Shown here one piece after another: positions 2,384 to 10,065 of a stretch of DNA of 16,625 nucleotides. The DNA comes from a virus (Duplodnaviria > Heunggongvirae > Uroviricota > Caudoviricetes). A program made the position numbers and the translations under genes. Numbering within the stretch: position 1 is the first letter of the stretch; the number at the start of each line of letters is the position of its first letter. Under the pieces are notes generated by a model. The model made no database searches. It saw only the letters and a program-made list of their open reading frames with translations, and was not told the origin of the DNA. The stretch lies in the IMG/VR virus record IMGVR_UViG_2778261459_000008. One strand, 5' to 3'.

Positions 2384-2406
2384 GGTCACTCCCTTTGTGA
2401 CACCTA

Positions 2407-2445
2407 TAAAAAAGGCGCTTCCCCATGCCGAGTAGCGCCTTTTTA
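2407..2445 (-). terminator. rho-independent terminator in the yhdJ-fis intergenic region (A-run, GC stem, T-run; bidirectional in form)
   Basis: AAAAAAGGCGCT-tccccatgccgagt-AGCGCCTTTTT: stem GGCGCT/AGCGCC flanked by an A-tract and a T-tract. Confidence 0.6.
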
Positions 2446-2468
2446 ATCAAGCATTTAGCTAACCTGAA

Positions 2469-2487
2469 TTAGTTCATGCCGTATTTT
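2469..2487 (-). other. fis: fis 3'-terminal fragment (last codons K-Y-G-M-N-stop only), proposed core of the island attachment site / island-chromosome junction
   Basis: Reverse complement of 2469-2487 is AAAATACGGCATGAACTAA, encoding KYGMN-stop, which matches the Fis C-terminus as I recall it. A TGA occurs in frame immediately upstream and the preceding sequence is not fis-like. Position relative to yhdJ (about 85 bp upstream) matches K-12 synteny. Confidence 0.6.
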
Positions 2488-2670: not shown

Positions 2671-3894
2671 ATGGCTGGTGGAACGAACAAATTAAGCGAT
2701 ACATCGCTTCGTAAAATGCTGGGAAGGGAGAGCCCCGGAGACAGCTTCTATGCTGATGGCGATGGGCTAAGTGTGAAGGTGTCCAGATCGGGCGTGTTGA
2801 CTTGGTATTTCACTTTCCGCATAGGTGGCCGGGAATCAACATCTCAGCGTATAAAGCTGGGTAATTATCCAGACCTTTCACTCAAAGCAGCTCGTGAGAA
2901 ACGAGAGCAGTGTCGCGCATGGCTCGCAGAGGGAAAGAATCCAAAGCACCAGTTGAGCGTTACGACTCAGGAAACGTTAAAGCCGGTGACAGTCAGGGAT
3001 GCCCTTGAATACTGGATCAGGGAATATGCCACCCATAACCGCGCTAATGTTGAAAAGCACATTGAGCAGCTCAATAAGCATATCTTTCCTTATATAGGTA
3101 CTTATCCGCTTTCTATGTGTGAAACTCGCCACTGGCTGGAATGTTTCGCCAGGGTAAGGAACGAAGCGCCTGTAGCGGCTGGCTATCTTTTGCAGATGTG
3201 TAAGCAAGCACTCAAGTTCTGCCGGGTTCATCGGTATGCGGTGAGTAACGTCCTGGACGATCTGACCATTGACGATGTTGGACGTAAACAGAATAAGCGG
3301 GACAGGGAGCATACCCGGCAAGAACTTGCTGATATATGGCGAGAATGCTCAGGCCTGAAATTTAAGCCCTACTACTCAGCTCTATTACGTCTGCTGGTGG
3401 TGTTTGGCTGCCGAACTCAGGAGCTGAGATTATCTCGCGTAACCGAATGGGATCTAAATGATTGGGTTTGGACGGTACCTAAAGAGCACAGCAAAGGTGG
3501 TGAGAAAATACTACGGCCTATTCCCGTAGATATTCGCCCATTTATCAAACAGCTTTTAGAGCAGCACCAAAGCACAGGGCTATTGCTGGGAGAGATAAAG
3601 AAACCGGAAGCTGTCAGTCAGTGGGGAAGGATGTTGTATAAGCGTCTGGGCCACTCTGAACCGTGGACGCTTCACGATTTACGCCGTACATTTTCCACGA
3701 CTCTGAACAACATGGGAATTGCTCCGCATGTTGTCGAGCAGCTTCTGGGCCATGCGCTGGGCGGTGTCATGTCCGTATATAACCGCAGTCAGTATTTACC
3801 TGAAAAGCTGGATGCACTGAATAAATGGATGCAGAGATTAGATGTTATTACCTCTGATATCTCAAATGTTACTATTCTTGAGGTCGCAAGATGA
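2671..3894 (+). CDS. int: tyrosine site-specific integrase (P4/CP4-57-like phage integrase family)
   Basis: 407-aa ORF; N-terminal DUF4102-like arm-binding region (GLSVKVSRSGVLTWYFTFRIGGRESTSQRIKLGNYPDLSLKAAREKREQCRAWLAEGKNP); C-terminal catalytic signature (HDLRRTFSTTL ... LGHALGGVMSVYNRSQY); SD GAGG 8 nt upstream of the ATG. Confidence 0.9.
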   Translation: MAGGTNKLSDTSLRKMLGRESPGDSFYADGDGLSVKVSRSGVLTWYFTFRIGGRESTSQRIKLGNYPDLSLKAAREKREQCRAWLAEGKNPKHQLSVTTQETLKPVTVRDALEYWIREYATHNRANVEKHIEQLNKHIFPYIGTYPLSMCETRHWLECFARVRNEAPVAAGYLLQMCKQALKFCRVHRYAVSNVLDDLTIDDVGRKQNKRDREHTRQELADIWRECSGLKFKPYYSALLRLLVVFGCRTQELRLSRVTEWDLNDWVWTVPKEHSKGGEKILRPIPVDIRPFIKQLLEQHQSTGLLLGEIKKPEAVSQWGRMLYKRLGHSEPWTLHDLRRTFSTTLNNMGIAPHVVEQLLGHALGGVMSVYNRSQYLPEKLDALNKWMQRLDVITSDISNVTILEVAR

Positions 3895-4733
3895 TAAAAA
3901 AAATTAACAGTAAAAGAGACTTACCAAAGTCATTCAGCTTAGAAAAATATGATGACCTTGAAAATATGTCTGATAAGGATTTGTTTCGTCAGCTTTATTG
4001 GCGATGCGATGATTTAACAATAAAAAATACAGACTGCCCTGACTATGGTTTGCAATATGGTGCTAAATACCCGCTTAACAATAATTTTGGTGATCCATTC
4101 GGGGAACTCAAAGCAGAAGAATGGTTTCTTGAAAAGCAAAAGGAATACGAGTACAAGACTCAGCCTGATTTGCTGAAATTAAGTTACGGCGATGGTATAA
4201 AACCATTAATGCGATTTGAGTTGGCATTTTTAAATAAAATCAATGCTGATAAAGGTCACTGGAAAGGAAAGCCAATAGTAGTTGACGATGATTTGGTGGG
4301 GGATTTGTTTACAGCAGATAACGGTATGTTTTGGGCTGTCATGCGTGAGCCAGTAAACTTACTTTCTGATGTTGTGGAAAACGTGATGATTACTGTTGAC
4401 TTAAACAACAGAGATGATCTTTTGATTGAAGCATTCACGAACCTCCTCCCAAAATGGCGCGAAGAACTCGGAATACCTGAACCAGATAAGCCAGTCTCAG
4501 GGGACTGGGAGAGCGTCAGACGGAAGATAATTGACTACAGAATAATTCCACTTATTGATTTGATGTCATGGGAAAGCGCTACCGACAGCAAAATATCCCT
4601 TGGCGTACTCGCAGTATCCCTGTTCCCGGATGGGGAAAAGGAGTCCTTTGCCATAGCTCAAACGGTGAAACCTTTCTTGGATAAAATTATGAGAAGTGAT
4701 TCTTTAGATAAAATCAGGAAAGAATTATCTTGA
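3891..4733 (+). CDS. hypothetical protein, 280 aa, AT-rich cargo gene translationally coupled to the integrase (ATGA overlap)
   Basis: Uninterrupted ORF whose ATG overlaps the int stop (ATGA at 3891-3894); visibly lower GC than flanking genes; no motif I can assign; followed by a strong terminator. Confidence 0.6.
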   Translation: MIKKINSKRDLPKSFSLEKYDDLENMSDKDLFRQLYWRCDDLTIKNTDCPDYGLQYGAKYPLNNNFGDPFGELKAEEWFLEKQKEYEYKTQPDLLKLSYGDGIKPLMRFELAFLNKINADKGHWKGKPIVVDDDLVGDLFTADNGMFWAVMREPVNLLSDVVENVMITVDLNNRDDLLIEAFTNLLPKWREELGIPEPDKPVSGDWESVRRKIIDYRIIPLIDLMSWESATDSKISLGVLAVSLFPDGEKESFAIAQTVKPFLDKIMRSDSLDKIRKELS

Positions 4734-4811
4734 TATAACTGAATCAGGGTAACTCCTTTAGAGGAATATAATTTTTTTCTCACCGTCGCGGTGATAATTT
4801 TTTTGAATAAG

Positions 4812-4848
4812 AATGCTCTCGAACCCTAGCGAACGAGAGCATTTTTTT
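4812..4848 (+). terminator. rho-independent terminator after the 280-aa gene; its T-tract runs into the alpA start codon
   Basis: AATGCTCTCG (4812-4821) pairs with CGAGAGCATT (4834-4843), followed by TTTTTTT and then ATG at 4849. Confidence 0.65.
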
Positions 4849-5058
4849 ATGAACAATATTAAACAATCCCAGCAGCCAGCAGAAAGAGTTATCCGTGAGG
4901 CTGAGTGCCGGCAGCTAACCGGTATTTGTCGAACCACTCGATACATGATGGAAAAAGAGGGGAGCTTTCCCGCCCGCCGCAAGCTGGGAGGTCGTGCTGT
5001 TGGTTGGCTTCTGTCTGAGGTCACAGCATGGCAGCAGAGCCGCAGCAAAGCAGCGTGA
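4849..5058 (+). CDS. alpA: AlpA-family phage/island transcriptional regulator (excisionase-like HTH)
   Basis: 69-aa product MNNIKQSQQP...CRQLTGICRTTRYMMEKEGSFPARRKLGGRAVGWLLSEVTAWQQ carries the AlpA signature (LTG.sR.T.Y....G.FP....LGGR.VGW...E...W). Start at 4849 chosen over the upstream in-frame ATG at 4813 by length similarity to AlpA; no clear SD for either. Confidence 0.8.
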   Translation: MNNIKQSQQPAERVIREAECRQLTGICRTTRYMMEKEGSFPARRKLGGRAVGWLLSEVTAWQQSRSKAA

Positions 5059-5399
5059 GGGGTGGGAAATGTCACATAAAACAAAAGCGGCCATGCAGGG
5101 CCGCCAATGTCACTACCAAAAACTTAAGCAAAGTCAGGATACCAGGGTTAATGCTAGTGGTCAAAGCCAGAGCGCTGCTGGGATTAAAGGAACTGCGGCA
5201 TTGGCGCACACCCTATTTCCCCAAATCTGGGGAGAACTGGATCATCATGCGGGGTGTGCTGCAATGCAGCATACCCCGGAGAAATCCCGTAGTTTCGACA
5301 AATACCCAGATATTGGGTGTTATGGCCTGCATAAAATCACACCTGCGGTTCTTATTCCTGTCCCCGGCTCTTCTTTAGCTCATTTGCAATGGCGGATAT

Positions 5400-5654
5400 T
5401 TAATCACGTGGTAACCAGCCTTTCGCATTCCTTTTGGGGATTGGAAGGTTCTTTTCCTTCAAAATACGTAAAATGGCAGGTTCTGAATGTGGTCCCCAAC
5501 CATCCCAATTACCTTCCCAACAGTCGTTACAGCAGAAAGCCCTACCGTATAATTGCAGTACACGTCCTTGGTAAAGGTCTGGGCCAAATCGTGTTTCTGA
5601 TCCACAGACTTCACATGTGCAATAAAAATGCCCTTTCTCATCTATGCGCATCAT
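5400..5654 (-). CDS. hypothetical Cys-rich small protein (putative zinc-binding), second gene of a two-gene minus-strand operon
   Basis: Product MMRIDEKGHFYCTCEVCGSETRFGPDLYQGRVLQLYGRAFCCNDCWEGNWDGW... contains C-x-C-x2-C and CC-x2-C clusters; GAGGA sits 5 nt upstream of the ATG at 5654; it lies 1 nt downstream of the stop of the upstream RHH gene. The ORF track extends it to a TTG at 5666. Confidence 0.5.
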   Translation of the reverse strand: MMRIDEKGHFYCTCEVCGSETRFGPDLYQGRVLQLYGRAFCCNDCWEGNWDGWGPHSEPAILRILKEKNLPIPKRNAKGWLPRD

Positions 5655-5667
5655 CTTCTTCCTCAAA

Positions 5668-5877
5668 TCAACCTTTTGGTTCTATTCCTTGCCGACGCAA
5701 TTCCGCGCGAGCTAATTCTTTTATCCAATTACCAAGACTTACGCCTTCGCGCTCCGCTGCATCGTTCAGTTGCTGGCGTAGATCAGGGTTGATTCTGATC
5801 TGGAAAGTAGGTGACCAGCCATCACCTTTAGGGGTTTTGTCTCGTTTAATTGTTGACACGTACGTACATAACCTCAT
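5668..5877 (-). CDS. ribbon-helix-helix (CopG/Arc/MetJ-like) DNA-binding protein; start codon uncertain (ATG at 5877 or GTG at 5859)
   Basis: The C-terminal 45 aa (SPTFQIRINPDLRQQLNDAAEREGVSLGNWIKELARAELRRQ) has the beta-strand plus two-helix pattern of RHH repressors. The ORF-track N-terminal extension to 5970 is merely the translation of the palindrome and is unlikely to be coding. Confidence 0.55.
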   Translation of the reverse strand: MRLCTYVSTIKRDKTPKGDGWSPTFQIRINPDLRQQLNDAAEREGVSLGNWIKELARAELRRQGIEPKG

Positions 5878-5904
5878 AGCATGTATTTTGTTATGTACGT
5901 ACGT
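5858..5904. promoter_or_regulatory. perfect 15-bp inverted repeat (ACGTACGTACATAAC, 17-bp spacer, GTTATGTACGTACGT): candidate operator in the divergent control region
   Basis: Read directly: 5858-5872 is the exact reverse complement of 5890-5904. It lies between the minus-strand RHH gene and the plus-strand replication operon starting at 5993; TTGACA is at 5852-5857. Confidence 0.6.
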
Positions 5905-5992
5905 TATCACGTCTGGCATAGAAAAGACAACGCCCCAAACTGTTGGAGCAGTATTGGGGCGTCTAACCAAACCGTTAGTTGAGGTAACAGTT

Positions 5993-6205
5993 ATGGCTGA
6001 ATTACAGCATACCCAAACTCGCCCGGAATTTACATGGAGATTTATCTCTGCTTCTGAGCGCTACCCTACCGCCAAACCATTGGTGATCTACGTCAACGCA
6101 TCCAGCGAACAGGAGGCCCGCGACACTATGCCGGGTGTAAACCTCATTTTCGCAGCACGTCTCCCATTCCATGCCTTTCAGGCAATGGAGGTACGCCATG
6201 CGTGA
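5993..6205 (+). CDS. hypothetical protein, 70 aa, first gene of the replication-module operon
   Basis: ATG at 5993 with GAGG 8 nt upstream; product MAELQHTQTRPEFTWRFISASERYPTAKPLVIYVNASSEQEARDTMPGVNLIF...; stop overlaps the next start. The 403-aa track ORF 4994-6205 is mostly spurious read-through; only this 3' part looks genic. Confidence 0.5.
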   Translation: MAELQHTQTRPEFTWRFISASERYPTAKPLVIYVNASSEQEARDTMPGVNLIFAARLPFHAFQAMEVRHA

Positions 6206-6603: not shown

Positions 6604-6968
6604 TCAGCAATGTGAAGTTTTACGAGCTGGCTAAGCGCGTTGATCTGCTGGTTGAAAAGGTTTTGCATCTTGAGGCACAGGTTAAGTCACTCACTGATAG
6701 TCAGGGGGGGGAAATCCCTCCGGGTATGACGCCAGTAGCAACACTGGCCGCTGAATACGGTATCTCAACCAATAAGGCTGAGGAACTGGCGAAAAACACA
6801 GGGGTGATGCTGGTTAAGCTGAAATCTGGCGGGTTCGTTGCACCTGATGAAAAGTTCAGGGAAGCGGCGCGTCTGGTGCTGCGCAGCGCTAAGCGCAAAT
6901 ATGGCTCTGCGTACTGGTTCCATCCTCTGATCGGCAAATTCCAGATGAGCGGGGGCATTCCAAAATGA
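6600..6968 (+). CDS. hypothetical protein, 122 aa, translationally coupled to the helicase gene
   Basis: ATG at 6600 with GGGAGG 8 nt upstream; ATGA overlap with the downstream gene at 6965-6968; no recognisable motif. Confidence 0.55.
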   Translation: MISNVKFYELAKRVDLLVEKVLHLEAQVKSLTDSQGGEIPPGMTPVATLAAEYGISTNKAEELAKNTGVMLVKLKSGGFVAPDEKFREAARLVLRSAKRKYGSAYWFHPLIGKFQMSGGIPK

Positions 6969-8329
6969 CGGTACAACTGACAGCTGTAGAAACCGTTTCT
7001 GATGCCCTGTTCACCTGTTCGTATCTGTGGGCGCACGGCAAGCAATACAGTCGCAGCGATTTGGATAAAGCGCTCCACCAGCATAAGGACCCCACTACCC
7101 GTTACGGAAAGCTGGTGGCTCGCCTCAACCAGATAGCAGCAATGCCGTATGAGGAACTCTGTGATGCCGGATATCTCGATACGGACCGCAAACAAATGAT
7201 TACAGCGCGGCGTTCTGTGCTGGTGGAAGAGATAGGCGAAGGGGAAATGAATGCCATGCTGTCTGACGTGCAGCGCATTCACCGGGTCTTCCCTGATGCT
7301 GGTGCAAAGTTCAGGACAAAGCTGCCTCTCTCTCGCGGTTCTGAGGGCTTTGATATCCGTCAGGACTATGTCCTTAAACACTTTCTGCCAGCGCAATCAC
7401 TGTGCAGCATTTACGGTCCCAGCGGTTCGTATAAGAGTTTTCTCGCTGTATCGTGGGCCTGTCACATTGCTGCGGGTCTGCCATGGGCTGGGAAGAAGGT
7501 CACTTCCGGCGCGGTGCTGTATGTGGTTGGTGAGGGGGGCGTAGGCGTTCCCCGGCGTATAAAGGCTTGGGAGCAGGTGCACGGCATACAGGCGGACAAC
7601 CTCTGGCTGGTCAATCGTCCGGTGTTTCCTGTGCGCGAGTCAGAGGTAACGGAAGTGCTTCTGGCTGCCAGACAGATTGAAGCTGAATGTGGTGTGCCGG
7701 TTCGCATGGTGGTGATCGATACGCTGGCCCGTTGTTTTGGCGGTAACGACGAGAACGATGCTCGTGATATGGGGGCATTTATTGAAGGGTGTGACGTTAT
7801 CAAACAGAAAACGGGTGCAACGGTGCTGATAGTTCACCACTCCGGCAAAGATGAAGGGAAAGGCGCTCGCGGTTCCAGTGCTTTCCGCGCTGCGCTTGAT
7901 ACTGAATTTAACGTTAAGCGTGAAGGGGATGGAAAGGCGCTTATTCTGACCTGTACCAAGATGAAAGACGCGGAGGAGCCAGAGCGTAAAGCGTATGACC
8001 TGAGAACGGCAGAGCTTTACACCGATGAAGATGGTGAGCTTGTTTGCTCTCTGGTTGTGCACGATCAGCCGAGAGAGGCTAAAGAGGTTGAGCCTGAACT
8101 GGCCAATGTCTCCCGTCTTAGCGATAACCACCATGCATTATGGCAGGCAGTACGCAGCCGCACAGCTAAGGGGGAGCCATGCACTATCTCCGTCATTAAA
8201 GATGATCTGCGTGCAACACTGGGGACAGATAAAGTGAGAAAGTCATTCTCGCGCTGGCTGGACAAGCTGGAGAGTGAGCAAATTATTCGCATCGAGGGTG
8301 AGAACCTTTACCCGGTAACAGTCGAGTAA
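6965..8329 (+). CDS. replication initiator/helicase, RecA-like AAA_25 (RepA-like) ATPase with predicted C-terminal winged-helix DNA-binding domain
   Basis: Walker A (IYGPSGSYKSF), Walker B-like (VRMVVIDTLARCFGG), HHSGKD motif; C-terminal about 90 aa basic and helical; immediately followed by iterons. Confidence 0.8.
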   Translation: MTVQLTAVETVSDALFTCSYLWAHGKQYSRSDLDKALHQHKDPTTRYGKLVARLNQIAAMPYEELCDAGYLDTDRKQMITARRSVLVEEIGEGEMNAMLSDVQRIHRVFPDAGAKFRTKLPLSRGSEGFDIRQDYVLKHFLPAQSLCSIYGPSGSYKSFLAVSWACHIAAGLPWAGKKVTSGAVLYVVGEGGVGVPRRIKAWEQVHGIQADNLWLVNRPVFPVRESEVTEVLLAARQIEAECGVPVRMVVIDTLARCFGGNDENDARDMGAFIEGCDVIKQKTGATVLIVHHSGKDEGKGARGSSAFRAALDTEFNVKREGDGKALILTCTKMKDAEEPERKAYDLRTAELYTDEDGELVCSLVVHDQPREAKEVEPELANVSRLSDNHHALWQAVRSRTAKGEPCTISVIKDDLRATLGTDKVRKSFSRWLDKLESEQIIRIEGENLYPVTVE

Positions 8330-8820: not shown

Positions 8821-10065
8821 TCAATAATTAAAGTGACTTTCAACTGAAAGTTGTTTGCAGCCCAATAATTTTAAAGCTTTTCGAATGTAATATAAAGCAG
8901 CGGTATTGTCGATAATGTAGCGGAAGGCTTCATTTTTATCTTGTTGTGCATCTCTTAAATTTCTTTCAAATTCTCTTTCATAATCTTCTGCGTAATATTG
9001 ATTGGATTGTCGGCCCATAATAATCAATGTGGTTAAATCTGCTAATTCTTCCTCTGAAAAGAGAGGTAGGTAAGTAGTGGTGATGCGCATTTTTAACCGT
9101 AGGTAGTCTAAAAAATCTTCTGCTCTGATATCGGATAAACTAATTCCTGAATCCTGTAGTGGGTCCAGAAATACGTTATTTTTTTTCATTACGTCTTTTA
9201 TATGTAGTGCGTACCAAGCTTTTTTAAAACGCAATAGTGTATTTTTCCCGCTATGTTTAAGTGGAAATTCAACGCCAATTAAAGATGATAGGTATCTATT
9301 TACAACAATTTTGTCGATTGCTTTTATAAGTTGTTTGTTGCTATTGAGATTAAATTTTTTCTTGATGAATTCCTTTTTTTTCACTGTAAGTGTAGTTACC
9401 CATTCATTTTTATTACCTAGAGCTTTTGAAAGCTTGATTAGATCACGGCGTGAAAATTTATCGGTATACGTACCTGTTTTATACTCATCTTTCAGATTTA
9501 GAGTGAGCTTAATTATTTCTCGCAAACCTTCCGTGAGCTTTTTGAAATAAACAACAAATCTTACAAGGTTAATGATCGGTGTTTTTTCCAAATGTGTCGC
9601 TCCGACATTGGACTCAGGGTATCTAAAAGTTTGTGCTGTGTCGTCTATAGCCACAAAGTCTAATATATAAGGCTCGATTTTTTTTGTAATGTGAAATAGT
9701 CGTATATCTGTCCTCTCAGCGACATCAATCGTGGCATCCCATAGTTTCTTGATGCTGTGGATTTTTGTCACATCAGGAACTGATATCGCCAATCCTCGGA
9801 GATCTGCCATGTCAATGAGGATAGTCTTTAGAGAAAGCTCAATTCCGTGCCTGGCAGAGTAGGCAATCGGATAAACAAGTAAATCAACTTCTCCTCTCTT
9901 GTTATTTTTGTATATATAGTCAGTAAGTATCTCTGGGGTTCTAAGGTAACCTTCAGCATAAGTTAATGAGTCAGGGAAACCATTCGTTCCGACGCAAGCA
10001 TTCAGCCAATCAAATCGACCATTGCCCAAACCAAAGGTGTTATTAAAGATTGTTTCTTTTTCCAT
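8821..10065 (-). CDS. hypothetical protein, 414 aa, AT-rich cargo gene on the opposite strand to the island backbone; candidate accessory/anti-phage function
   Basis: Uninterrupted minus-strand ORF with ATG at 10065 and AAGGA 8 nt upstream; markedly AT-rich versus flanking replication and capsid genes; no Walker, HNH, DPPY or other catalytic motif recognised. Confidence 0.7.
   Translation of the reverse strand: MEKETIFNNTFGLGNGRFDWLNACVGTNGFPDSLTYAEGYLRTPEILTDYIYKNNKRGEVDLLVYPIAYSARHGIELSLKTILIDMADLRGLAISVPDVTKIHSIKKLWDATIDVAERTDIRLFHITKKIEPYILDFVAIDDTAQTFRYPESNVGATHLEKTPIINLVRFVVYFKKLTEGLREIIKLTLNLKDEYKTGTYTDKFSRRDLIKLSKALGNKNEWVTTLTVKKKEFIKKKFNLNSNKQLIKAIDKIVVNRYLSSLIGVEFPLKHSGKNTLLRFKKAWYALHIKDVMKKNNVFLDPLQDSGISLSDIRAEDFLDYLRLKMRITTTYLPLFSEEELADLTTLIIMGRQSNQYYAEDYEREFERNLRDAQQDKNEAFRYIIDNTAALYYIRKALKLLGCKQLSVESHFNY

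What the first reader, a model, noticed from the sequence alone, without database searches (positions are those of the whole stretch)
3891..4733. AT-rich 280-aa gene of unknown function translationally coupled to the integrase
The ATG overlaps the int stop (ATGA), composition is clearly more AT-rich than int and alpA, and a strong terminator follows. Cargo inserted between int and alpA is a typical position for accessory, defence or anti-defence genes in satellites. I recognise no family for it.
Basis: partly seen in the sequence, partly recalled or inferred. Interest (0 to 1): 0.6.

Follow-up and report, generated by a model that had tools for sequence, protein, structure and literature searches.

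The report
DUF6387 cassette between integrase and alpA
This is a real, strongly conserved gene of a known but uncharacterised family (DUF6387) that fills a fixed one-gene slot between the integrase and the alpA switch gene of a phage satellite; what it does has never been tested.

Summary
The ORF at 3891-4733 is real. Its ATG overlaps the integrase stop (ATGA), its GC is 0.39 against 0.49 and 0.54 for int and alpA, and two hairpin/T-run terminators follow it. It is not family-less: it matches Pfam DUF6387 at E=6e-30, a stand-alone family of more than 1,200 clusters.

The window is an E. coli capsid-forming PICI of about 15 kb, integrated in the 3' end of fis.

In every DUF6387 locus I could read, across many Enterobacterales genera, the gene sits directly upstream of alpA. 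In nearly all of them it also follows a P4-type integrase, usually with the same 4-nt overlap. The literature notes the same pairing with the AlpA-type excision factor in ROD21-like islands, described as an "843 bp gene of unknown function".

When islands were sampled by integrase instead, the int-alpA gap was never empty. In all but a few it held one ORF of 216-321 aa from interchangeable, unrelated families, between near-identical flanks.

DUF6387 has dN/dS of about 0.04. It has no defence-database hit, no domain fusion and no structural relative.

Function is unresolved. My best guess (0.33) is a non-enzymatic modulator of the AlpA switch. Close behind (0.30) is a defence or accessory cassette. 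The finding is of moderate interest.

The parts
2406..2487 (.). attL: left copy of an 82-bp perfect direct repeat. It corresponds to the 3' end of fis plus its terminator. The right copy lies outside the window, at the position equivalent to 17344-17425 in E. coli HZ13.
   Evidence: using locus L001.
2671..3894 (+). P4-type tyrosine integrase, 407 aa.
   Evidence: Arm-DNA-bind_3, Phage_int_M and Phage_integrase domains. RefSeq annotation.
3880..3883 (+). GAGG ribosome-binding site for the DUF6387 gene, located inside the end of int.
   Evidence: Read directly from the sequence.
3891..4733 (+). DUF6387 family gene, 280 aa, pI 4.8, mostly alpha-helical. Its ATG overlaps the int stop (ATGA).
4780..4804 (+). 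First terminator-like hairpin (TCACCGTCGCGGTGA) and its T-run. It ends the int-DUF6387 transcription unit and belongs to the exchangeable cassette.
   Evidence: In one search this stretch differs between cassettes.
4809..4848 (+). Conserved leader hairpin (core stem 4812-4821 paired with 4832-4841) followed by U7, abutting the alpA start codon. It forms the right-hand conserved flank of the slot.
4849..5058 (+). alpA, the AlpA-family regulator or excision factor, 69 aa.
   Evidence: (Phage_AlpA, E=6e-16).

Best explanation
Shown: the ORF encodes a genuine, strongly constrained, stand-alone protein of Pfam family DUF6387. It is translated from the integrase transcript, with its own GAGG site and a 4-nt overlap with the int stop. 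It is insulated from alpA by two hairpin/T-run elements. It occupies a fixed slot between a P4-type integrase and alpA in a capsid-forming PICI of about 15 kb inserted in the 3' end of fis. Within this integrase lineage the slot is never empty. In all but a few loci it holds one protein of 216-321 aa, drawn from several unrelated families that are swapped between nearly identical int and alpA flanks.

Inferred: DUF6387 is a non-enzymatic, mostly helical protein made together with Int while the island is quiescent or newly arrived. It acts on the AlpA-dependent excision/induction switch. It either holds AlpA in check or sets the threshold or signal for switching on. It would do this through protein contacts, or possibly RNA contacts, rather than by binding operators. 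On this reading, the interchangeable families in the slot are alternative solutions to the same job.
For: 1. DUF6387 is directly upstream of alpA on the same strand in every locus with enough flank. There are 42 distinct int/DUF6387/alpA combinations, from Escherichia, Enterobacter, Klebsiella, Serratia, Dickeya, Pectobacterium, Morganella, Yersinia, Providencia and others, down to 31% identity.
2. The pairing survives where the rest of the island differs. Replicases are AAA_25, DUF5906 or DUF927. Capsid genes are HK97-type, cap_E-type, ClpP-capsid fusion or absent. One locus is an element with a TraG-type coupling protein.
3. [quoted passage not shown] That gene is annotated DUF6387 in ICEKp258.2 (PMC10763509).
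4. DUF6387 divergence tracks AlpA divergence (partial r 0.41) more than Int divergence (partial r 0.08).
5. The slot is never empty and in 75 of 78 readable loci holds one ORF in a narrow size range. This fits functional analogues better than random cargo.
6. The family is essentially absent from phage genomes (2 of 50,697 records) and from plasmids. It is never fused to another domain.
7. dN/dS is 0.03-0.06.
8. There are no enzymatic or defence signatures, and the residues invariant across the family are mostly aromatic, Pro, Leu, Arg or Asp.
10. Background from the literature: how Gram-negative PICIs keep alpA off and sense the helper phage is unknown (PMC6092414). A protein antagonist of an AlpA exists in P. 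aeruginosa, namely YgfB (PMC9998450). From my own knowledge, in SaPIs and in ICEBs1 the genes between int and xis are the immunity regulators.
Against: 1. No function has been tested for any family member.
3. DUF6387 cassettes carry no paired operator-like repeats (0 of 27), unlike 13 of 30 cassettes of the other slot families. No shared cis motif was found either.
4. Near-identical alpA genes (>85% identity) go with DUF6387 proteins below 50% identity in 50 locus pairs, and also with unrelated slot families. Any contact with AlpA therefore cannot be highly specific.
5. The prototype PICI EcCICFT073 has no gene between int and alpA, yet it is inducible and mobilised (PMC6092414). A slot protein is therefore not generally required for the PICI cycle.
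6. The AT-rich composition and cassette exchange are also what an accessory or defence gene would show.
Confidence: 0.33

Rival explanations
1. It is an anti-phage defence or phage-interference cassette carried in the 5' accessory region of the satellite. It is expressed constitutively with Int and protects the host, and so the island, against competing phages. The other slot families would be alternative immune genes.
For: PICIs are reported to carry immune systems at their 5' or 3' ends (PMC11364771, citing Fillol-Salom et al., Cell 2022, which I could not read). Unrelated families are exchanged between flanks that are 95-99% identical. GC is 0.39 against about 0.5 for the island core, the same as for the second AT-rich variable gene at 8821-10065. 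The gene has its own terminator. The prototype PICI works without a slot gene. Non-enzymatic PICI proteins that block phage assembly are known, for example Tai (PMC11364771).
Against: Neither DUF6387 nor nine other slot proteins hit PADLOC. No nuclease, TIR, Sir2, ATPase or other effector domain was detected. The slot never holds a recognisable multi-gene or known defence system in the 78 readable integrase-sampled loci, and its size range is narrow. DUF6387 is never seen in other hotspots, phages or plasmids, unlike mobile defence genes. It is a conserved partner of the excision factor in ROD21-like islands (PMC6035254). Its purifying selection is as strong as for int.
Confidence: 0.3
2. It is an accessory factor of site-specific recombination for this P4-type integrase and AlpA module. 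It might be architectural, act in target choice, or control directionality or stability. This would explain the translational coupling to Int.
For: The gene is always next to int and/or the AlpA-type directionality factor. In the circular form of ROD21-like islands, int, attP, DUF6387 and alpA are neighbours (PMC10763509). The 4-nt overlap with int is conserved down to 31% identity. A distant member also follows an integrase of only 23% identity.
Against: Integrases 95-99% identical to the window's work with unrelated slot proteins. DUF6387 divergence is almost uncorrelated with Int once AlpA is accounted for. EcCICFT073 integrates and excises without such a gene (PMC6092414). There is no similarity to Xis, Vis or AlpA.
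Confidence: 0.1
3. It is an establishment or anti-defence protein needed at entry into a new host. It would be made together with Int from the incoming DNA to counter host restriction or other immunity.
For: Co-expression with Int places it at the moment of arrival. The protein is acidic, with pI 4.8 and net charge -12. Cassette diversity would match host-defence diversity.
Against: The acidity is modest compared with known DNA-mimic proteins (my own knowledge). There is no similarity to any anti-restriction family. In ROD21-like islands the gene is not coupled to int (PMC10763509).
Confidence: 0.07

Closest known systems
The '843 bp gene of unknown function' next to the AlpA-type RDF in ROD21-like (EARL) genomic islands, for example KPNJ2_RS09320 of ICEKp258.2
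   Same: It has the same Pfam family as annotated in RefSeq (DUF6387; PMC10763509). It has the same length, 843 bp. It sits in the same place, directly upstream of an AlpA-family gene on the same strand. It is conserved across most islands of that family (PMC6035254). Its function is also untested.
   Different: There the pair sits at the island end opposite the integrase, so it cannot be translationally coupled to int. Those islands are conjugation-related, not capsid-forming satellites. I did not align the two proteins directly.
Stl/Rpr master repressors of Gram-positive PICIs (SaPIs)
   Same: They sit next to int. They differ strongly in sequence between related islands. They gate the excision and replication switch, and phage proteins are their inducing ligands (PMC6092414). 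The slot here shows the same pattern of a fixed place with a variable protein.
   Different: No helix-turn-helix domain and no operators were found for DUF6387. The gene is co-directional with alpA rather than divergent from the regulated operon. EcCICFT073 has no counterpart. There is no homology.
Immune genes in the 5' accessory region of PICIs, and the P4 defence hotspot
   Same: The position after int, the exchange of unrelated genes between conserved flanks, and the AT-rich composition (PMC11364771).
   Different: There is no match to any known defence model. Nearly always one gene of similar size fills the slot. DUF6387 is not found in other hotspots or in phages.
YgfB, the protein antagonist of the antiterminator AlpA in Pseudomonas aeruginosa
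   Same: It is a precedent for a small non-enzymatic protein that restrains an AlpA-family regulator by direct binding (PMC9998450). This is the working model proposed here.
   Different: There is no sequence or genomic relationship. YgfB is a chromosomal gene that is not linked to alpA. The interaction is not tested for DUF6387.

Membership tests
Pfam PF19924 (DUF6387) | The profile HMM score is above the curated gathering threshold. | tested here: met
   105.1 bits against a cut-off of 28.9, E=6.1e-30. All 45 homologues carry PF19924.
Pfam PF19924 (DUF6387) | Full-length, single-domain architecture of about 250-300 aa, with a conserved N-terminal LPxxF..Y..L...D.F/L.Q.R motif and a C-terminal LLPxWR / IPLxDLxxW / FPxGEK / QTxxPF block. 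| tested here: met
   Alignments A1 and A6. There are no fusions in the longer members.
Capsid-forming PICI (cf-PICI) | The int - alpA - replication module is in one orientation at the left end. | tested here: met
   int at 2671-3894, alpA at 4849-5058, AAA_25/RepA helicase at 6965-8329.
Capsid-forming PICI (cf-PICI) | [quoted passage not shown] | tested here: met
   (L001 annotation up to fis). (82-bp att repeats about 14.9 kb apart).
Capsid-forming PICI (cf-PICI) | Induction and transfer depend on a helper phage that supplies tails. | not testable with these tools
   This needs experiments. A circular copy of 16,971 bp from a related island is deposited as a K. pneumoniae 'plasmid', which suggests excision.
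Known anti-phage defence systems (PADLOC-DB 2.0) | A match to a defence protein model. | tested here: not met
   no hit at E<=0.1; none for the other slot families either.
Known anti-phage defence systems | Protection against phage when expressed. | not testable with these tools
HTH master repressors (Stl/Rpr/CI-like) | A recognisable DNA-binding domain. | tested here: inconclusive
HTH master repressors (Stl/Rpr/CI-like) | Repeated operator sites next to the regulated promoter. | tested here: not met
   paired palindromes in 0 of 27 DUF6387 cassettes, against 13 of 30 cassettes of other slot families; no enriched motif.
Recombination directionality factors (Xis/Vis/AlpA) | Sequence or profile similarity to the AlpA/excisionase fold. 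| tested here: not met
   hhalign probability 0.05% against an AlpA alignment; no Phage_AlpA or Exc hit.

The most novel reading that the evidence does not exclude
DUF6387 and the other proteins that fill the int-alpA slot are the missing control module of this lineage of Gram-negative satellites and related islands. They would be interchangeable 'immunity' cassettes that keep the AlpA switch off and determine which phage signal, or other signal, turns it on. DUF6387 would be the variant that works by protein contact, while the others work through their own operators. Cassette exchange would then set helper specificity and allow related islands to co-reside.
Probability: 0.2. Interest if true: 0.8.

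Novelty: new member of a known kind. Interest (0 to 1): 0.45.

Why it matters
How Gram-negative phage satellites stay silent and sense their helper phage is an open question. AlpA is known to be the activator, but nothing is known to hold it back (PMC6092414). A family of more than 1,200 protein clusters that always travels with alpA is a concrete, testable candidate for that role. The slot it occupies is never empty in this integrase lineage and is exchanged as a cassette. If the gene turns out instead to be a defence gene, it would be a new single-protein system with an unmatched fold. Either way, the well-defined cassette boundaries make the experiment simple: the left boundary is the int stop codon and the right boundary is the conserved alpA leader hairpin.

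Tried and rejected
1. Chance ORF. Rejected on homologues, dN/dS and annotation.

2. Known defence gene. No PADLOC hit.

4. Remote homology between DUF6387 and the alternative slot family from E. coli SCU-125. Rejected: BLASTP E=4.1 and hhalign probability 1.5%. The predicted secondary structures also differ, all-alpha against alpha/beta.

5. Similarity of either family to AlpA. Rejected.

6. Domain fusions as a functional hint. None found.

7. A DUF6387-specific cis element between the gene and alpA. An exhaustive gapped 3+3-mer search found nothing present in at least 60% of 27 non-redundant loci. A hand-made CAC..GTG-type pattern is present in only 9 of 27.

8. Wider context sampling of very distant members. 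The alignment was too divergent to search with. Single-protein scans found nothing.

9. Reading Fillol-Salom et al. 2022 (Cell), to see whether a DUF6387 gene had been tested. The paper is not held.

10. A direct sequence match of the window's AlpA to the P. aeruginosa AlpA structures. Not found at E<=1. Only 8c3t, an 'AlpA family phage regulatory protein', matched.
Full report
**1. The observation**

The window carries an ATG-started ORF of 280 codons at 3891-4733 on the + strand.
- The sequence reads gcaagATGAtaa, so its start codon overlaps the TGA stop of the preceding 407-aa gene (2671-3894) by four bases. A GAGG ribosome-binding site lies at 3880-3883.
- Its GC content is 0.388. The upstream gene has 0.485, the downstream gene 0.543, and the rest of the element 0.51-0.54.
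- Two hairpins with T-runs follow it. The first is at 4780-4794. The second, stronger one is at 4809-4841 and is followed by seven U that run directly into the next start codon at 4849.

**2. Where the window comes from**

The window is 100% identical to the chromosome of E. coli HZ13.
- The RefSeq annotation and my domain scans agree on the gene order: acrS, yhdU, yhdJ, then int, DUF6387, alpA, ylcI/ynfO (- strand), icd-like, three small ORFs, a RepA/AAA_25 helicase, a small ORF, a DUF3775-domain gene (- strand), HK97-type capsid, prohead protease, portal, head-tail connector, HNH, TerS, TerL, one small ORF, then fis.
- An 82-bp perfect direct repeat brackets the element. One copy is at window 2406-2487. 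The other is about 14.9 kb to the right, outside the window. It consists of the 3' end of fis and its terminator.
- This is the anatomy of a capsid-forming phage-inducible chromosomal island: its own head and packaging genes, no tail or lysis genes, about 15 kb.
- A related island, whose DUF6387 protein is 98.6% identical, is deposited as a 16,971-bp circular 'plasmid' of Klebsiella pneumoniae. A protein 99% identical is encoded in Enterobacter soli.

**3. What the protein is**

- It matches Pfam PF19924 (DUF6387) at 105 bits against a cut-off of 28.9, and phrog_23422. It matches nothing in NCBIfam or PADLOC.
- Forty-five full-length homologues of 40-98% identity come from Enterobacterales. 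A profile built from them finds 1,236 clusters at 50% identity, nearly all 230-330 aa long. The longer ones contain no second domain.
- Two regions are conserved across the whole family. One is an N-terminal motif, LPxxF.L..Y..L....D.F.Q..R. The other is the C-terminal 110 residues, with LLPxWR, IPLxDLxxW, FPxGEK and QTxxPF. The middle of the protein varies.
- The invariant residues are mostly aromatic, Pro, Leu, Arg or Asp. They do not look like a catalytic set; this is my inference.
- The protein is acidic, with pI 4.8.
- Against relatives of 94-99% identity, dN/dS is 0.03-0.06, the same as for the integrase.
- The family is essentially absent from phage genomes (2 doubtful records of 50,697) and from plasmids other than the circular island above.

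**4. Context of the family**

- I read the neighbours of DUF6387 genes from Klebsiella, Serratia, Dickeya, Pectobacterium, Morganella, Yersinia, Providencia, Tenebrionibacter, Winslowiella, Edaphovirga, E. coli ST131 and many uncultured sources.
- A script over all loci shows that wherever enough flank exists, an AlpA-family gene follows within about 40-130 bp on the same strand. Where a tandem pair occurs, this applies to the last copy.
- In nearly all loci a P4-type integrase also precedes the gene, with the same 4-nt overlap, down to 31% protein identity.
- The exceptions are variations on the same theme:
  - two DUF6387 genes in tandem (L005, L023);
  - an extra reverse-strand gene between int and DUF6387, in an element that also carries a primase and a TraG-type coupling protein (L025);
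  - a 51-nt gap after an integrase that is only 23% identical.
- The rest of the island varies freely, in its replicases and in its capsid modules.
- Two papers list a DUF6387 gene next to an AlpA gene in other islands.
[quoted passage not shown] There the pair lies at the end opposite the integrase (PMC10763509). The constant partner is therefore alpA.
- In E. coli the family is rare. It occurs in 55 of 5,426 complete genomes, five of which carry this allele.

**5. The slot**

- E. coli SCU-125 has the same island at the same site, with int about 94% identical at the DNA level and a near-identical alpA. It carries an unrelated 270-aa gene in the same place, with the same ATGA overlap.
- That gene belongs to its own family, here called famB, which is widespread in Enterobacterales and always lies between int and alpA. 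It shows no profile similarity to DUF6387 and has a different predicted fold.
- I then sampled 80 loci by integrase rather than by DUF6387. Both int and alpA could be read in 78 of them. The int-alpA gap was 650-1290 bp in all 78.
- In 75 of the 78 the gap held one + strand ORF of 216-321 aa. In nearly all of these the start overlaps the int stop by 4 or 1 nt. In 11 it starts 8-94 nt downstream instead.
- The three exceptions: no ORF passed my filter in one (L070); there are only short ORFs in two (L087, L108); and the DUF6387 gene is split in two in one (L121).
- The occupants fall into DUF6387, the broad famB group, a 216-220-aa family and a few minor ones. None hits PADLOC or, apart from DUF6387, any Pfam family above threshold.
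- Islands with int 95-99% and alpA 90-99% identical to the window's carry any of these. Conversely, DUF6387 identity is out of step with int: for example int 87% with DUF6387 43%, and int 56% with DUF6387 71%.
- The cassette runs from the int stop codon to just before the conserved hairpin in front of alpA.
- The slot is not universal. The prototype PICI EcCICFT073 has a 365-bp gap with no gene between int and alpA, yet it is inducible and mobilised (PMC6092414).

**6. Weighing the readings**

- the published use of the PICI 5' end for immune genes (PMC11364771);
- cassette exchange between near-identical flanks;
- AT-richness;
- the dispensability shown by EcCICFT073.

The reading of a role in the island's own switch is supported by four others:
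- the slot is never empty and nearly always holds a single gene in a narrow size range;
- the alpA partnership holds in elements that are not satellites;
- the family is absent from phages and from other hotspots;
- DUF6387 tracks alpA (partial r 0.41) rather than int (partial r 0.08).

From my own knowledge, the place between int and xis is also where SaPIs and ICEBs1 keep their immunity regulators.

Other slot families add to this. Thirteen of 30 non-redundant non-DUF6387 cassettes have two near-identical palindromes 20-21 bp apart, starting at or just after their stop codon. Examples are GGAAATTCC...GGAAATTTCC and GTGATATCAC...GTGATATCAC. Only 0.35% of shuffled controls show such a pair. 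This looks like a regulator travelling with its operators.

DUF6387 cassettes have none (0 of 27) and no shared motif. If DUF6387 does the same job, it must do it differently. I therefore propose protein contact, with YgfB restraining AlpA in P. aeruginosa as a precedent (PMC9998450).

Nothing here shows function. I put the switch-modulator model at 0.33, defence at 0.30, a recombination accessory at 0.10 and an entry or anti-defence role at 0.07.

**7. Comparison and novelty**

- The gene is an ordinary member of a catalogued family of unknown function. Its partnership with the AlpA-type factor has been noted before for one island family.
- New here are three points: the slot is obligatory and exchangeable in this integrase lineage; the translational coupling is conserved across unrelated families; and no relative was found in the structure libraries available here (the AlphaFold database could not be searched).
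- I file the gene as a new member of a known kind, of moderate interest.
- The more novel possibility is that these cassettes are the missing control module of Gram-negative satellites. It is not excluded, and I give it about 0.2.

Noticed in passing
window 4809-4848 (core stem 4812-4821 / 4832-4841, U7 4842-4848); also L002, L011, L056, L060 and about 60 other loci: A hairpin directly in front of the alpA start codon is conserved whatever gene fills the slot. It shows covariation: 7 of 10 pairs change on both sides, 91% of cells are paired against 40-54% when the partner is slid, and the G-U pairs are readable only on the + strand. In one alpA type it is a terminator followed by a U-run. In a second type (GCCUCCAC...GUGGAGGC-AAC-AUG) it buries the Shine-Dalgarno sequence instead. 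P. aeruginosa AlpA is an antiterminator (PMC7969949, PMC9371919), so satellite AlpA may switch itself on by reading through this hairpin. No paper in the library links the two.
   Followed up: partly
L002:11034-11075, L056, L058, L074, L099 (famB cassettes); L064, L067, L085, L090, L091, L096: The non-DUF6387 slot cassettes carry two near-identical palindromes 20-21 bp apart, starting at or just after their stop codon. Examples are GGAAATTCC/GGAAATTTCC and GTGATATCAC x2. They occur in 13 of 30 such cassettes, 0 of 27 DUF6387 cassettes and 0.35% of shuffles. They look like operators travelling with a regulator gene.
   Followed up: partly
window 8821-10065 (- strand): This is a second AT-rich gene (GC 0.356): 414 aa, a weak DUF3775 match, on the opposite strand, between the helicase and the capsid gene. 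In E. coli SCU-125 (L002) and in the K. pneumoniae circular copy (L140), different genes occupy this position. It matches the accessory region next to pri described for Tai immune genes (PMC11364771). There is no PADLOC hit.
   Followed up: partly
window 2406-2487, and 2613-2635: The 82-bp att repeat is the 3' end of fis plus its terminator, so the island integrates into fis and restores it. A motif TGTGCAGTCAGTGGTGCAGTCA lies just upstream of int and recurs just inside the right end of the island in HZ13. These may be arm-type integrase sites.
   Followed up: partly
L140 (CP018459.1, whole record): A 16,971-bp circular 'plasmid' of K. pneumoniae is a related cf-PICI in excised form, with a DUF6387 protein 98.6% identical. 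It carries an extra gene annotated as a 3.4-kb tape-measure protein between terL and int.
   Followed up: no
L003 (E. coli PD7) 5288-6132: An IS1 insertion has removed int and the DUF6387 gene and truncated alpA. The rest of the island is intact, leaving an immobilised remnant.
   Followed up: no
L005:7998-9675 (Providencia) and L023:1737-3421: Two diverged DUF6387 genes lie in tandem between int and alpA.
   Followed up: no
window 4994-6205 (+): The 403-codon GTG ORF listed here is probably not one gene. Only its last 70 or so codons (5993-6205) are annotated in RefSeq, and they match the Icd-like cell-division inhibitor family. A ylcI/ynfO gene lies on the opposite strand within it (window about 5668-5859).
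   Followed up: partly
L142:9161-9525 (EcCICFT073): The gene-free int-alpA gap of the prototype PICI holds a run of GAACAAC-like repeats (GAAACAACG, GACACAACG, GAACAACAAG, GGAACAACGG) and lacks the leader hairpin. This suggests a different control arrangement.
   Followed up: no
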